A stretch of 50,940 nucleotides of DNA from Candidatus Woesearchaeota archaeon (GTDB lineage: Archaea; Nanobdellota; Nanobdellia; Woesearchaeales; JAWBMQ01): contig JAWBOS010000006.1 in the NCBI GenBank assembly GCA_038825875.1, positions 1-50,940 of the forward strand. Reading direction: 5' to 3'. A program made the position numbers. Numbering within the stretch: the stretch's first letter is position 1; the number at the start of each line of letters is the position of its first letter. This document shows, piece after piece, positions 1-6,000 of the stretch.

Positions 1-3000
1 ATTGCAGTCTTCCAAATCTGTCTCTATGTGCTCTACTTCTATTCCGTCAAATGAAAAATTTGGATAAAACCCATGCATAGCAAAATCTCTCAGTGTCTGT
101 AAAAGTGCATTCCTTGCACAGCCCTCAAGATAAACTCTTATACTTTCATCATCTCCTATCCCTATATACTTACTCTTATCCTCATACATCTTATTTCTTG
201 AATTGTAAATCAAGAATATTGAAAAAACAATAAGACCTAGCAATAAAATGCCCAACAAAATAAAATAAACAATCTGTGATCTTTTCATACTGTATTCCCT
301 ATACTTTCTTATTTAAAAATATTTTTTAATCAAAAGTTTTATAAAGAGAAAAGAAAGACTTATTCCTATGGGAAAGAAGATAAAATTGAATAAGAAAAGA
401 ACAGGGGAAAAAGAGGAGAAGAAAGAGAATGTTATTGGAAAATATTTGACTCTTTTGCTTGGTCTGATTTTAGTATTAAGTTCTTTTGCTTTTATCTTAC
501 ACACAAATCAAGAACAATCAAAGTTAAATTACAATAATTACAACTTTAGATATGATCAGAGATCTAGAAGATTTTATACCAATGTGGAGGGGACAGAGAT
601 AAGTACATATTATCATCCAAGAGATGTAGATTATTTAAATCTAAATTTTATAAGAACTCCAAACTTAGTGGTGATTCTAAAAAACTTTGATGAAGATGAA
701 ATTGATGATATAAGAAATTTTGTTTTGACAGATTTATTCAATCTTTATTATTTAAATATAAATATTTCAATTCAAGATACTGAGTTCTGTAATGATTTAA
801 CTCTAGTAATTGATAAAAATATCACTGAACGGAGCATGGAAAAAAATTGCATCTATCTTCCTCTTTCTCCTCAATTATTGGAAGTCATTGATTTTATAGT
901 TTTCAGATATTTTAACATAATTGCATAAAAAATGTTTAAAGTTATTGACAGTGTAAAGAAGTAAATTGTTGCATTAAACCAAAATCTTTGTGGATAAATG
1001 TTAACAATCAAATCCCAAAAACCAAATCGCCAGTTATTTTTCGAGTAGAAAAGGACATAATGCAATCCTAAGGAAACGCTTCTAGGAAATATCGCTGAAA
1101 AAATAAGAGTTATCAACAATATTGTTACATTCAAAAGATGAAATTTTATTAAAAGCTTAAGAAGATAATTAACATCATAGTACTTCAAAAAACATATCAA
1201 AAAAGCAATCAAAAACATGAAAAAAGCAATATCTCTAATAATAAAAAACATCTTCAATAGTTCTTTTACATCGTACATATGTTCTTTTTCTTTTTGAGTA
1301 AAGTACAGGGAATTATTGAATATCATAAAATCTCTATCATTTAAAACTGCTTTAAGTCCCAACAAAGCAAGGGATAATCTTTGTTCTTTTGTTAAATCAT
1401 AGAAGGGGTTTGTTGCATAATAATCATCCATGTATTCTGCATACACAAAATCTTCATTAAAACTCATCTTCAGGATTGTCAATGTAAAGAAAAGAAAATA
1501 GCAGATAAACATAAAAAAGTGTAAAATTTTCATGATTAATAGAAGCAAAAAGAAAATTTATAAATTTTATTACAGTAAAAATTTTATGATTGAATTGATC
1601 CTACTAATTGGCCCGCCTGGCTCTGGCAAAGGAACACTTGGAGAATTTCTCTCTTCAAAATATAACCTAATATGGATATCCATGGGTGATTTGATAAGAA
1701 AAACTCTAAGTGAAGACACAGAGCTAAGTAAAACAGCAAGAGAGATCGTAAACTCTGGCAAGCTTTTGCCTGACGAAATAACTAACAGAATCCTAACAGA
1801 AAACCTGCCACGATCAGGCACGATTTTGCTCGATGGGTATCCAAGAAAGATAAGTCAAGCAGAATTCTTAGAAAAAAATTTCAAAGTGTTGGGAGTGATT
1901 TTTATTAATTGTGATAAGAAAGAAATAATTGAAAGAACAATAAATAGACGTACATGTCCTATTTGTGGAAAGGTTTACAATCTAAAAACAAATCCTCCTA
2001 AGGAAGACAATTTATGTGATATATGTAAAAAACCATTGATTCAAAGAGAAGACGATACTGAGCAGGTAATAAGGAATCGACTAGAGGTTTATGAAATGGA
2101 GAGTAATGAACTGAGAAACTACTATGAAAGAAAGGGATTGATTTATGAAATTGAAAATATACAAAAACCTTTAGAGATATATCTTGAAGAAGGAGAAAAA
2201 ATAATGAAAAAAATATTAAAGATCTAGTTACTTACACTTTTCTGCAAATTCTTTTATTTCTGATTCATTTTTTGACAAGATAAATGAACCGTCTTTGCAC
2301 AGCAAGACTGGCATAATGTATCTTACTTGTTTTAATGCAGTATCAAAGCACTCAACAATTTCTCTTTCTGAGAACATTTCAAAATCTAAGTTCATTTTTT
2401 GTAATATTTCCTTATATTCTCTGCACGGTTCGCATTGTTCAGATCCATACAAGAAGAGATTAGCGTCCTTATTCAGTGCAAGCAAGCAAATTTCTGTCTT
2501 ATATGAATAAACTTCTATGTTTGCGTTGCTTCTTAATTGCTTTAGATAATCTACCAAAAACTCTTGCATTTTTATTTGTCTTATATATGCCTCAATATCT
2601 CTCTTAGCCTCGTCAAAAGATACATTCTCAAAAAACATTTTCATTTCCTGATAAAAATCCATCACTTCCTGTTCACTCACTTCAACGAAATTAATAAGGT
2701 AAGAATAAATGTAATTATTGAGGTACACCATTAGTTTTAAATTCCTGATGTATGAATCATAGTCAATTCCTTCTCTTTCAATCATTCTCCTAAAAGCATC
2801 TTCTGACATATTTGACTGATTCAGAATTGCATTATATACTTCTAAGAACATAGTTTCGTTTTCTTCAAATCCTCTATTTTTGGCATCTTGGATTATTAGT
2901 GTTTGCACTATGAGATCATTTAATGCTCGACTTTTATCTGCTGAATCTCTTATAGAAATAGGTAAACTAGCAAGATATTTTTCCAGATCACTAGCAAATA

Positions 3001-6000
3001 TTTTTTCTCCATTAACTATAGCCAATAGTTCATCCTTAGCTGTTGGTTTAGTTATCTCTTTTTCTTTTTTAGGCAGAATTATTAGAGATAATCCAGCAAT
3101 CACAATTATTGCTAGTACAATCAAAAGGATTATCCAGATAATTTTTGATTTCTCTTTCTTTTTAGGTTTTTGAGCTTTTTTTGAGGTTTCGTGAACCGCT
3201 TTTGTTCCCTTTTTTCTTTTCTTCTTAGAAGATTTTTTCACTTCTTTGGGTTGTGATTTTTGAACTTCTTCAACTGACATTTGATCCTGTTCTTTTTTAA
3301 CTTCGGTTGTTTCGTCCATTCTTATTCACCTCTAATTCTCTCGAATTATGTGAACAAATATATAAATTTTTGTTTCGTGGAAATGCAATTTTAAAAATTC
3401 TGTTAATTTTTGTAACTGTTTAAAAAATAATTCTAAACAATGCACTTAATGCCTGAAAGCCATCAAATCCTGGAATTGGAAGCATATTTAGGAAAAACAA
3501 ATAAATGTTAAGATATGAAAATCCGATCCATCCAGAATTTTTAGTTTTTTCATACATTAATTTTCCTATGTAATACATAGCAAGATTTGAAAGAGGTCCT
3601 GCAATTGAGATAAATAAGCTTGCAACATTTGTAGGATTTCCAGAAATTGAAACAAAAGCAGGAGCAAAGATGATAAATGGAAAATTGAGAATCTTCATCA
3701 GAATTCCAAAAAATAACCACATATATGCCGCTCCTACTGTTGCATTATAACCAAAACTTACTGCCACAAATTTGTGGGCTAATTCATGAAAAATTATTGT
3801 TGGAGACACAAAGATCAAAGCTCTATAAAATCCTTCACTAAAAAAAGAATTCTTCCTAAAGAAAAAGTCAATTACTGATTTTCTCTCAAAGTAATCCTTA
3901 AATATGTATGCAACAGCCAAGGATACAAGAACAATATCAAAGATCTCTCCAAAGGTTAAAAACATTTCAAAACGAAAAATTTTATAATCTTTAAATATTT
4001 TGTGTATTATTATGAGAACCACAAAAACTTGGCTTTTACTGTTTATTGCTGTATTTTCAATATTCTCAACATACTCACTAGAAATCTCACATTCTCCACA
4101 AATAATAAACTCTGACACAGTGGTAAAGATAACAATTAGCAATCCTTCTGATAATGAAGCAAAATTAACAATTGTTAGCTACATTTTCTCAAATAATGAA
4201 AAAAAGTTTTATGTCAAAGATGATTATATCATTAAACCAAAACAAAGGATTGAGATAAACAGGTTTATTTCACCTTCTTCAAATGATAGGCATTTAGCAA
4301 TAATTGTTTATGGGGATTTTTCAAAAGAGATAATAATTCCAATAGTATTGTCCAATGAAAAAACTGAGCAAGGATCAAATAATGAAATCTCAAATTCTGA
4401 ACAAAGAACTGAAAAAATCCAAAAGAAACAAGATGTTATAACTGAAAAAATCATCGAATGTAATGCTCCTATAATTCTAATTTCTGAAAAGCTAGAACAA
4501 AAAGAGAGATTTTCTGAAAATGAAAGGATTTACTTACATAGTTTTGTTGAAGACGAAATATATCTCTTTCATGAAAATTGGTATTTGGAAAAAATAGGTG
4601 AAGGAGTATATGAGTTAAGAGCGAAGAGAAGGGTTTTTGGAAATCAAAGAATCACTTTGTACTTTGAAAACTGTGAACCTAGAAAGATAGAATTCTTTGT
4701 AGAGAAATCTCAGCAATACTTTTCAATATTTTTGTTTTTCATAGCACTAATAATCCTAATTGTTTTCTTTGCCATTATGGTAGATTTATTTGAGCTAGAA
4801 AGAAAGAGAGAAGAAGAGAGAAAATATAGGATTCAAGCGATGAAAGAAAAGATCCAATCAAAAAAACAAAAGGATGTGAAAAAGATTTCAAAGTTTTCAA
4901 AGAAAAATAAATAAATATTCCAGACTTTCTCATAAGAAATGAATCTCAATGCTCGACAGTATCAGATAAATATTTTTGAGAAAGCAAAGTTGTACAATAC
5001 ATTAGTAGTTTTGCCAACTGGGCTAGGAAAAACATTAATTGCCATACTTCTAATAGAGAACCGATTAAAGAATTACCCAAACAGCAAAGTTATATTTCTT
5101 GCACCTACAAAACCCCTAGTCATGCAACACAAAAAAAGCATCGAAGAGCATCTAAATAAGGAAGTAATCGCTTTTACTGGCTCAACTAAAAGTGAAAAAA
5201 GAAAAGAGCTATTTGAAAAAAATTCAATAATTGTAGCAACTCCACAAACAATTCAGAATGATTTGTTGACAAAGAACATATCCTTGGAAAATGTTTCTCT
5301 TATTGTTTTTGATGAAGCCCATAGAGCAGTGAAGGATTATCCTTATGTTTATATTGCCCAAGAATACCATAAACAAGCAAAATATGAGAGAATTTTAGGA
5401 TTAACAGCAAGTCCAGGACATGACAAGGAAAAGATATTGGAAATTTGTAATAATCTGTACATTGAGCATCTAGAGGTTAGAACAAGGCACGATCCTGATG
5501 TAAAACCTTATGTTCAAGAAATAAAGATAGAATGGATAGAAGTAGAGTTAAATGAAGAATTAAAAAGGATAGTATCAATGTTAAAAGAGATACTAATTGA
5601 AGAGATTGAAAGATTTAACAAATTAGAATTAGAAAAAATAGGTTCAGATACTTCAAAAAAAGAGATTTTAAGGATTCAGCAGTACATAAATGAAAAACAT
5701 TCCACAGATCCAAGAATATTTGAAGCCAATTCCTCATTATCATTAATATTGAAATTGAAGTACATGATAGAGGTAATAGAAACTCAAGGAGTAACACCTC
5801 TTTACAATTATATTCTAGAATTGAAAAAGGAATACTTCTCTAAAGGAAACAAAACGATAAGAAGATTATTGAGTGATTCGAGATTCAATCTTGTTTTTTC
5901 TCAGGTAAAGAATTTACTTGATAAAAATTTTGAACATCCAAAACTTGAAGTTTTAAAAGACATTATGAAAAAATTCAAAGAATCTGAAAATGGAAAAGCA

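What a model noticed while it worked through the whole genome (the two positions that open the first line are those of the whole stretch)
2228..3319. Membrane-anchored SurA/PrsA-type foldase fused to a CxxC domain: a bacterial extracytoplasmic folding kit in Woesearchae [...]
g00402 has one N-terminal membrane anchor, a SurA/PrsA chaperone domain without parvulin and a C-terminal CEPC thioredoxin-like part; the genome also has a two-domain DsbA-like protein (g00704) and a thioredoxin-CcdA-like membrane protein (g00411). They likely form a bacterial-type post-translocation folding and disulfide relay for the large Cys-rich surface proteins, behind SecYEG-SecDF. SurA/PrsA chaperones are regarded as bacterial; an order-wide archaeal version with a fused oxidoreductase is undescribed.
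Evidence so far: calls 17,203 SurA_N E 3e-7, PDB SurA E 0.007; relatives.tsv SurA_N_3 in 44% of the order, 4% of archaea, 62% of bacteria (call206); call204 homologues in 20 of 31 genomes; call202 no paper.
(Added by a program. Inside this text positions count along the whole contig: contig position 1 is position 1 of the stretch shown here. "Call 12" and the like, gene names such as g00115 and contig names such as C1 are that model's own, and its searches are not shown. The text may have been shortened before it was handed on; [...] marks where a part breaks off. The agent that wrote the report below was given it as the finding of a first reader that could run no searches.)

Follow-up and report, generated by a model that had tools for sequence, protein, structure and literature searches.

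The report
Archaeal surface foldase with thioredoxin tail
A large group of tiny-genome archaea (Woesearchaeota) carries a membrane-anchored relative of the bacterial SurA/PpiD folding chaperones, usually with a thioredoxin-type domain fused to its end and often a proline isomerase in its middle, and it likely holds freshly exported proteins and helps form their disulfide bonds, a job for which few archaeal factors are known.

Summary
The gene is real (2228-3319, minus strand, 363 aa): basic tail, one membrane anchor, a complete SurA-type chaperone core (model pLDDT 93; Z 14.4 to E. coli SurA) and a 90-residue thioredoxin-fold domain with CEPC, an invariant proline and four invariant extra cysteines. 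It belongs to a family found in 145 of 301 genomes of its phylum, nearly all in its own order, and in 2 of 454 genomes of four other archaeal phyla. One thioredoxin type is the oxidase domain of cyanobacterial VKOR (E 1e-24). Most sit at a conserved site beside a HerA-like ATPase and DnaG, so the gene is old in the order. Best reading: a PpiD-like holdase outside the membrane with a built-in thiol-disulfide catalyst; this lineage likely lost the parvulin. The proposed relay is unproven: this genome has no DsbB or VKOR, CxxC loss does not track CcdA or VKOR, and bacteria also encode SurA-thioredoxin fusions. New variant of a known kind; I found no paper describing it.

The parts
3326..3332 (-). 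Ribosome-binding motif GAGGTGA, 6 nt before the ATG
   Evidence: read directly from the sequence
3143..3319 (-). Charged, lysine-rich N-terminal tail, residues 1-59, inferred cytoplasmic
   Evidence: 21 K/R, 10 D/E; more K/R before than after the anchor in 101 of 107 family members
3074..3142 (-). Single membrane anchor, residues 60-82, inferred N-in/C-out and uncleaved; no lipobox cysteine
   Evidence: hydropathy 3.5; anchor in 107 of 109 relatives, lipobox-like motif in only 5
2501..3037 (-). SurA-type chaperone core (N domain about 98-226, C helix about 235-270), residues 95-273
   Evidence: Pfam, profile against PDB, model and fold searches
2621..2635 (-). Short loop (about residues 229-233) where relatives carry a parvulin domain; absent here
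   Evidence: matches of longer relatives break at about residue 230; parvulin in 65 of 106
2231..2500 (-). Thioredoxin/glutaredoxin-fold domain ('type C'), residues 274-363, with four invariant non-catalytic cysteines (278, 324, 341, 362)
   Evidence: alignment of 24, model pLDDT 91.7, fold search Z 8.4, profile against PDB
2423..2434 (-). CEPC dithiol motif, residues 296-299, at the start of a helix
   Evidence: sequence; model
2309..2311 (-). Pro337, invariant, at the position of the thioredoxin cis-proline
   Evidence: invariant in 24 of 24; cis state not tested
10450..11634 (-). Companion candidate: CPHC thioredoxin domain fused to a multi-pass membrane domain with two invariant Pro-Cys motifs (CcdA/DsbD-like); link to the foldase inferred only
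   Evidence: relatives in 104 of 151 genomes of the order
11700..14210 (+). SecF (11700-12638) and SecD (12642-14210), context
   Evidence: Pfam SecD_SecF_C; SecD within about 10 kb of the foldase gene in 4 of 15 relatives, one of them the same genus

Best explanation
This is a membrane-anchored SurA/PpiD-type chaperone with a fused thioredoxin-fold domain that likely sits on the outer face of the cell membrane, likely cradles proteins as they leave the Sec channel, and likely uses its CEPC motif to form or reshuffle their disulfide bonds. Shown: the anatomy, both folds, the conserved motifs, the distribution and the conserved gene position. Inferred: (1) N-in/C-out topology; (2) ATP-independent holdase action of the core, by homology to SurA, whose core works without its parvulins (Behrens 2001, title seen in a reference list); (3) dithiol-disulfide exchange by the tail, more likely on the oxidising/isomerising side; (4) the family ground plan is anchor + core + parvulin + thioredoxin, from which parvulin, CxxC or the whole tail were lost or swapped repeatedly, this genus having lost the parvulin; (5) substrates are the large cysteine-bearing surface proteins. 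The partner that resets the CxxC is not identified.
For: Folds. Topology: positive-inside in 101 of 107; N-glycosylation sequons 0.21 per Asn after the anchor against 0.12 for the reversed motif and 0.12 before the anchor; four invariant extra cysteines kept even when CxxC is lost, as expected of structural disulfides. Redox side: CPHC is the commonest motif (17 of 54 after dropping L006), with Val-Pro typical of types A and C, as in DsbA (PMC4597128, passages); type B is the thioredoxin domain of cyanobacterial VKOR (PDB 3KP8, E 1.2e-24) and type C aligns to type B (HHalign 95.9%, E 5.6e-9). Parvulins look intact: both His motifs in 59 of 68. Age: HerA-like ATPase divergently upstream in 57 of 92 and HerA or DnaG adjacent in 67 of 92. 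Functional neighbours: anchored DsbA-like gene directly downstream in 14 of 92. Analogy: Mycoplasma couples PrsA-like proteins and a thioredoxin-fold protein at the Sec translocon (bioRxiv 10.1101/2025.04.25.650208, passages).
Against: No DsbB, VKOR or Pfam DsbD_TM match in this genome. CxxC is lost in 16 of 70 complete thioredoxin domains, scattered over the tree (15 changes, as in shuffles), and 36 of 106 proteins have no detected thioredoxin domain, so redox catalysis is dispensable. CxxC state does not track CcdA-like (38/54, 11/16, 27/32) or VKOR genes (10/54, 4/16, 10/32). This protein has CEPC and Met-Pro, not CPHC and Val-Pro. Secreted-type proteins are only modestly richer in cysteine (1.42% against 1.08%; even:odd 36:21 against 166:157, p 0.11). 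The most conserved neighbours (HerA-like ATPase, DnaG) are not secretion genes. The tree is poorly resolved (81 of 147 branches under 80), so the order of gains and losses is not shown.
Confidence: 0.65

Rival explanations
1. Holdase only: the thioredoxin fold is mainly a substrate-binding or structural module (like Mycoplasma MPN523 or the non-catalytic PDI domains) and the CxxC is incidental or decaying.
For: CxxC lost many times independently while the proline motif is kept in 15 of 17 CxxC-less domains and the extra cysteines stay; inner residues vary widely; no co-occurrence with redox partners; MPN523 precedent.
Against: 54 of 70 domains keep CxxC across identities near 20-25%; CPHC predominates; type B is very close to a proven catalytic domain.
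Confidence: 0.17
2. Reductive branch: the domain is kept reduced by the Trx-CcdA-like protein at 10450-11634 and works as a DsbC/DsbG-like isomerase or reductase that repairs mispaired or oxidised cysteines of surface proteins, with disulfides formed by small oxidants.
For: The genome has a CcdA-like protein with two invariant Pro-Cys motifs (20 of 20) but no DsbB/VKOR; DsbD-type proteins keep isomerases reduced (PMC2689190, passages); chaperone + thioredoxin is the DsbC design. This is a sub-case of the best explanation on direction.
Against: The membrane domain matches SfLAP better than DsbD_TM (18 against 4 of 19 members) and has no PDB match; no co-occurrence with CxxC (p 0.37); the monomer model resembles monomeric SurA cores (Z 13-14) more than dimeric PrsA/PEB4 (Z 7), so a DsbC-like V-dimer is not indicated.
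Confidence: 0.12
3. Dedicated assembly factor of one machine: the protein serves a specific partner such as the neighbouring HerA-like ATPase (if that is a secretion or DNA-uptake motor) and not general export.
For: Head-to-head with the DUF87 ATPase gene in 57 of 92 loci, mostly 30-300 nt apart.
Against: The pair is broken in this genome (ATPase on contig C1) and its genus relative; divergent, not co-transcribed; the block also holds DnaG, TrpRS-like synthetase, RIO kinase and topoisomerase VI genes, i.e. looks like conserved core gene order (the last names are my reading of the sequences, only DnaG/Toprim, tRNA-synt_1b and DUF87 were scanned).
Confidence: 0.06

Closest known systems
E. coli PpiD (membrane-anchored SurA-family chaperone at SecYEG, with YfgM)
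   Same: N-terminal transmembrane anchor followed by a SurA-type chaperone domain and, in most relatives, one parvulin (anchor described in PMC4922055 passages; Sec association in PMC9643414, abstract start only). Fold match Z 9.4.
   Different: Much shorter; long basic cytoplasmic tail; C-terminal thioredoxin domain; parvulin absent here but with intact His motifs in relatives; no YfgM partner tested.
E. coli SurA core and monomeric SurA-like proteins Cj1289 (3RGC) and LIC12922 (3NRK)
   Same: Best sequence-profile and fold matches: E 4e-25 to 4e-13; Z 14.4, 13.8, 13.4; N domain plus C-terminal helix with the parvulin slot between.
   Different: Those are soluble periplasmic proteins of diderm bacteria; this one is anchored, archaeal, and ends in a CxxC domain. 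NCBIfam SurA score 24 bits against a cut-off of 394.
PrsA foldases of Bacillota
   Same: Membrane-tethered post-translocation foldase of a cell without outer membrane; N/parvulin/C order in relatives; profile E 1e-6 to 5e-4.
   Different: PrsA is a lipoprotein; here a TM anchor and no lipobox. Weaker fold match (Z 7.1). No thioredoxin domain in PrsA.
Thioredoxin-like domain of Synechococcus VKOR (PDB 3KP8/3KP9)
   Same: Type B tails match at E 1e-24; this gene's type C tail aligns to type B.
   Different: There fused to the VKOR membrane oxidase; here fused to a chaperone, and VKOR is found in only 43 of 151 genomes of the order and not in this one.
Mycoplasma pneumoniae dome complex (Mdp436/444/489 with MPN523)
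   Same: PrsA-like chaperones plus a thioredoxin-fold protein at the Sec translocon of a genome-reduced cell; CxxC lost in some lineages.
   Different: Separate lipoprotein chains with internal duplication; here one chain.
Uncharacterised bacterial SurA_N-thioredoxin and SurA_N-DsbA fusions
   Same: Same two-domain order: ESM Atlas clusters of 104 (commonest Thermodesulfobacteriota) and 51 members (Acidobacteriota), feature scores 0.88 and 0.82, leads only; P0141, P0155, P0157, P0209.
   Different: Their tails are canonical thioredoxin or DsbA domains that my type A/B/C profiles did not pick up for P0141, so probably independent fusions; no parvulin in those four by Pfam.
Archaeal single-domain parvulins (NmPin, CsPinA; arCOG07441)
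   Same: Archaeal, surface-associated prolyl isomerases proposed to fold envelope proteins.
   Different: Single-domain, no anchor. Hoppstock 2016 states that all identified archaeal parvulins are single-domain; Anchal 2021 contrasts them with bacterial SurA/PpiD types. The relatives found here are multi-domain.

Membership tests
SurA/PpiD/PrsA chaperone superfamily | N domain plus C helix forming the SurA chaperone core | tested here: met
   Pfam SurA_N and SurA_N_3 above cut-off; model Z 14.4 to SurA core over 173 residues
SurA/PpiD/PrsA chaperone superfamily | Parvulin domain inserted between N and C parts | tested here: not met
   absent from this protein and genome; present in 65 of 106 relatives
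SurA/PpiD/PrsA chaperone superfamily | Extracytoplasmic location | tested here: met
   by prediction only: positive-inside 101 of 107, sequon bias, invariant paired cysteines
SurA/PpiD/PrsA chaperone superfamily | ATP-independent holdase activity | not testable with these tools
   needs biochemistry
SurA proper | Soluble periplasmic protein with two parvulins (recalled), NCBIfam equivalog score | tested here: not met
   24 bits against 394; membrane anchor; at most one parvulin in all 109 loci
PrsA | Lipoprotein anchor (lipobox cysteine) | tested here: not met
   no cysteine before residue 278; lipobox-like motif in 5 of 109 relatives
PrsA | Dimer through the NC domain (recalled) | tested here: inconclusive
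PpiD | N-terminal transmembrane anchor | tested here: met
PpiD | Binding to SecYEG and YfgM | not testable with these tools
   only weak gene-neighbourhood hint: SecD near in 4 of 15 relatives
Thioredoxin-fold dithiol oxidoreductases | Thioredoxin fold with CxxC at a helix start and a conserved proline opposite | tested here: met
   cis geometry not checked
DsbA family | Helical insertion in the thioredoxin fold (recalled) and a DsbB/VKOR partner | tested here: not met
   90-residue domain, no DSBA/Thioredoxin_4 match; no DsbB or VKOR in the genome
VKOR-associated thioredoxin domain (3KP8 type) | Sequence match to the 3KP8 domain | tested here: inconclusive
   met for type B relatives; for this gene only through profile-profile match to type B; 3KP8 not among the listed hits of the type C profile
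CcdA/DsbD membrane domain (for 10450-11634) | Two conserved Pro-Cys motifs in the membrane domain (recalled) | tested here: met
   both in 20 of 20
CcdA/DsbD membrane domain (for 10450-11634) | Pfam DsbD_TM / DsbD_2 match | tested here: inconclusive
   this protein none; 4 and 1 of 19 relatives, best E 5e-8; SfLAP 18 of 19; NCBIfam rhodanese/DsbD fusion TsoB E 1e-6

The most novel reading that the evidence does not exclude
Woesearchaeota evolved a single-chain, three-in-one export foldase (SurA-type holdase, active parvulin prolyl isomerase and CxxC oxidoreductase; all three in 32 of 106 relatives) as an ancestral core gene that docks at SecYEG-SecDF. It would be a prokaryotic one-protein counterpart of the ER's chaperone/PPIase/PDI team, the first multi-domain archaeal parvulin family, and in most genomes, this one included, it would run oxidative folding without DsbB or VKOR, implying an unrecognised electron sink.
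Probability: 0.3. Interest if true: 0.78.

Novelty: new variant of a known kind. Interest (0 to 1): 0.57.

Why it matters
Little is known about what folds archaeal proteins after Sec export; the reviews I read describe archaeal parvulins as single-domain and SurA/PpiD types as bacterial. A conserved, syntenic family in one of the largest DPANN groups changes that, gives a soluble 30-kDa module that can be expressed and assayed although the organisms are uncultured, and bears on how these host-dependent cells build their giant cysteine-bearing surface proteins. The natural series (with or without parvulin, three thioredoxin types, with or without CxxC) is a ready set for asking what fusing folding catalysts buys, and may be useful for recombinant production of disulfide-bonded proteins.

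Tried and rejected
Complex prediction of a homodimer was not available, so oligomeric state is open. RNA: no RNA holder listed; 0 reads laid from three raw runs read at 3-5% and only 18-28-nt chance pieces from a contig set: no test of expression. The search for related loci with the core alignment found no conserved stretch. Cluster look-ups of 20 hits gave almost no names. Promoter/terminator scan: at chance level, and not suited to archaea. Tree of the core (150 rows; L006, L049, L070 and five other-taxon rows left out): 37 of 39 bacterial rows fall apart from the archaeal ones but with support 14, and only two bacterial phyla were sampled, so no donor or monophyly is claimed. One search repeated the phylum and is not counted twice. 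One genome titled Methanosarcinales (G591) had two strong hits; against 1 of 121 in that phylum I treat the title as doubtful and do not count it. PDB search with the CcdA-like membrane alignment: nothing significant. Rejected: shadow ORF or artefact (conserved protein family, RBS); PrsA lipoprotein; DsbA membership; cytosolic PDO (the genome has a separate 214-aa PDO-like protein on C9); DsbC-like dimer as the default. Earlier-findings look-ups near the locus, by sequence and by words were empty.

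
Full report
Observation. The ORF is at 2228-3319 on the minus strand, 363 aa, with a GAGGTGA motif 6 nt before the ATG and a stop that abuts the convergent adenylate kinase gene. A 98% identical database protein is labelled 'hypothetical protein, Candidatus Woesearchaeota archaeon'; that label is my only source for the lineage name. Residues 1-59 are charged and lysine-rich, 60-82 form one hydrophobic segment, 95-273 match Pfam SurA_N (E 3e-7) and SurA_N_3 (E 5e-7), and 274-363 hold CEPC with a weak glutaredoxin match (E 0.0096).

Folds. A 123-row alignment gave an AlphaFold model of residues 85-363 with mean pLDDT 93.4. The core aligns to SurA lacking its second parvulin (Z 14.4, rmsd 3.2, 173 residues), LIC12922 (13.8), Cj1289 (13.4), PpiD (9.4), and less well to PEB4 (7.2) and PrsA (7.1); Foldseek agrees. 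Helical folds reach high Z easily, but the sequence profile independently finds the same proteins at E 4e-25 to 1e-13. The tail, modelled alone (pLDDT 91.7), matches glutaredoxins and thioredoxins at Z about 8, and its profile finds 99 PDB sequences at E up to 0.1; the 60 shown are nearly all thioredoxin-fold proteins. In 24 aligned tails C278, C324, P337, C341 and C362 are invariant, also in the four rows without CxxC.

Topology. An anchor is present in 107 of 109 relatives and K+R are more frequent before it than after in 101 of 107; a lipobox-like motif occurs in 5. N-X-S/T sequons occur at 0.21 per Asn after the anchor against 0.12 for the reversed motif, and 0.12 against 0.12 before it. 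With the invariant cysteine pairs this points to an N-in/C-out anchor and an extracellular body. Kin are not independent and this remains a prediction.

Family. The protein alone matched 119 of 151 genomes of the order at E 1e-3, a few only by tail and anchor (tally includes unpublished G121 and G132). I fetched 110 matched places, the best by E-value, from 106 of the 119 genomes, dropped L006 (unpublished) and three proteins cut by contig ends, leaving 106. By profiles built from these sequences: parvulin in 65, a C-terminal thioredoxin domain in 70, CxxC intact in 54, parvulin plus thioredoxin in 46 (32 with CxxC), core only in 17. Three further tails (L103, L105, L106) look like degenerate thioredoxin domains but are counted as none. 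Pfam confirms SurA_N + Rotamase in six of six parvulin-type proteins scanned; both His motifs are present in 59 of 68 parvulins. The tails are of three types (A 29, B 15, C 26). Type B matches the thioredoxin domain of Synechococcus VKOR (3KP8, E 1.2e-24); type C, this gene's, aligns to B over 80 columns (95.9%, E 5.6e-9) and to A only around CxxC. So both 'without parvulin' and 'fusion seen in few relatives' describe this gene or a small sample, not the family.

Distribution. A core profile found 145 of 301 genomes of the phylum: 141 in the own order, 4 elsewhere in the class; two large families had 0 of 24 and 1 of 36. Elsewhere: 0 of 151 in the phylum of a Micrarchaeota record, 3 of 61 in the family of a Pacearchaeota record, 1 of 101 in the phylum of a Bathyarchaeia record, 1 of 121 in that of Methanococcoides, 0 of 81 in that of a Thorarchaeota record: 2 of 454 over four phyla. 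As a positive control the same profile rang in 150 of 151 genomes of a Desulfonema record's phylum. Phylum names come from record titles. Pfam SurA_N_3 rang in seven bacterial control genomes and no archaeal one. Several DPANN phyla and Thermoplasmatota were not searched.

Gene position. In 92 loci with parvulin or thioredoxin, a DUF87/HerA-like ATPase lies divergently upstream in 57 and that gene or DnaG is adjacent in 67; among 17 core-only loci, 4. An anchored multi-thioredoxin protein homologous to this genome's DsbA-like gene (E 1.5e-52) follows on the same strand in 14 of 92, 12 of them with type A tails. In this genus the gene has moved next to adenylate kinase and an M50 peptidase; SecD lies within about 10 kb in 4 of 15 relatives read at 20 kb, one being the same genus. 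The gene is therefore old and mostly vertically kept. The core tree is too weak for a donor or an order of events, but strongly supported branches force at least 4 changes of parvulin presence and 3 of CxxC state.

The relay. This genome (99% complete) has no VKOR, DsbB or DsbD_TM match, with controls ringing. VKOR is in 43 and the CcdA-like membrane domain in 104 of 151 genomes of the order. The latter keeps two Pro-Cys motifs in 20 of 20 but matches SfLAP in 18 and DsbD_TM in 4 of 19. Genomes with an intact CxxC tail, a dead tail or no tail carry CcdA-like genes at 38/54, 11/16, 27/32 and VKOR at 10/54, 4/16, 10/32 (p 0.37 and 0.25): no signal. The DsbA-like protein on C17 has CPYT and CPYG in its DsbA domains. 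Secreted-type proteins with many cysteines exist (38 in 1573 aa, 32 in 1838 aa, 31 in 391 aa), but the overall enrichment is modest. The relay is thus a reasonable guess, not a result, and neither direction nor partner is fixed.

Mechanism. Most likely the anchor holds the protein near the Sec exit, the SurA-type cradle binds unfolded chains without ATP, the parvulin (where present) isomerises prolines, and the thioredoxin tail exchanges disulfides with the bound client (0.65). The motif statistics and the VKOR-type module lean to the oxidising side; the partner inventory of this genome leans to the reducing side (0.12 as a separate rival); repeated CxxC loss keeps a binding-only role open (0.17).

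Literature. Nine library searches listed no paper describing SurA/PrsA/PpiD-type proteins in Woesearchaeota or a natural SurA-thioredoxin fusion; I saw listings and abstract starts, and the library lacks most subscription papers. [quoted passage not shown] Term searches found no mention in the main texts of PMC8421398, PMC13473441 and bioRxiv 10.64898/2026.05.13.725050 or in the supplements of the first; a supplement of the second lists arCOG07441 under the label 'SurA, parvulin-like', dominated by PPIC-domain annotation with 7% labelled PrsA, without comment (file cut when stored). The preprint's supplements were not seen. Automatic labels therefore exist, including an ESM Atlas parvulin cluster that is 89% archaeal, commonest Woesearchaeota. 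Bacteria also hold SurA_N-thioredoxin and SurA_N-DsbA fusions, so the domain pairing is not unique to archaea.

Verdict. Observation confirmed, interpretation partly supported. A new variant of a known kind: each module is familiar, but a lineage-wide archaeal SurA/PpiD-type foldase with interchangeable thioredoxin tails, and often all three folding activities in one chain, was not found described. Interest 0.57.

Noticed in passing
window 871-1548 (-): Homologue of the bacterial lipoprotein intramolecular transacylase Lit (Pfam E 2e-10, above cut-off), two genes from the foldase; an earlier scan note reports Lgt in the same genome, hinting at bacterial-type lipoprotein processing.
   Followed up: no
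G000:C17:2607-4295 (L111); L304:11096-12427: Anchored protein with three thioredoxin-fold parts; DsbA-like domains carry CPYT and CPYG, the middle one CSTC, plus a weak match to the vacuolar sorting receptor TRX domain (E 1e-6). Homologues follow the foldase gene in 14 of 92 loci.
   Followed up: partly
G047:C68, G128:C105, G013:C9, G102:C2, G086:C82, G057:C2, G025:C1: VKOR and the CcdA-like membrane gene lie within about 3.2 kb of each other in at least 7 genomes of the order: oxidising and presumed reducing membrane conduits clustered.
   Followed up: no
window 10450-11634 (-): The membrane domain belongs to a well-conserved family (24 invariant columns in 19) that Pfam files under SfLAP and that has no PDB match; possibly an uncharacterised CcdA-like clade.
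   Followed up: partly
G000:C1:24722-26038 (L298:8723-10039): DUF87/HerA-like ATPase, the head-to-head neighbour of the foldase in most relatives; here it sits near a 2007-aa LamG surface protein and a 462-aa, 12-cysteine secreted protein. Role unknown.
   Followed up: partly
L028, L034, L042, L069, L074, L075, L089, L091, L260, L261, L263: A second, short (205-280 aa) core-only form, some with lipobox-like motifs, mostly outside the conserved gene block and also the form seen in a Bathyarchaeia-phylum genome and two Pacearchaeota-family genomes; may move more freely.
   Followed up: partly
window 7676-10391: Cluster of small Fe-S/CCG-like and FAD-oxidase-like ORFs (8247-8633, 8587-9684, 9681-10391) directly downstream of the Trx-CcdA-like gene on the same strand, also in the genus relative; by eye only, not scanned. 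A possible electron source or sink.
   Followed up: no
window 27237-28327 (-): Peroxiredoxin (AhpC) beside a Fur-family regulator: an oxidative-stress pair.
   Followed up: no
G000:C9:18284-18925 (L314:4285-4926) and L314:5974-6546: A cytosolic PDO-like two-thioredoxin protein and, two genes on, an FKBP/SlyD-like protein with a His-rich tail (second by eye only).
   Followed up: no
L001-L110 N-termini: The cytoplasmic tail before the anchor varies from a few to about 170 residues, low-complexity and ending in a lysine-rich stretch; the DsbA-like and SecF proteins of this genome have similar basic tails.
   Followed up: no
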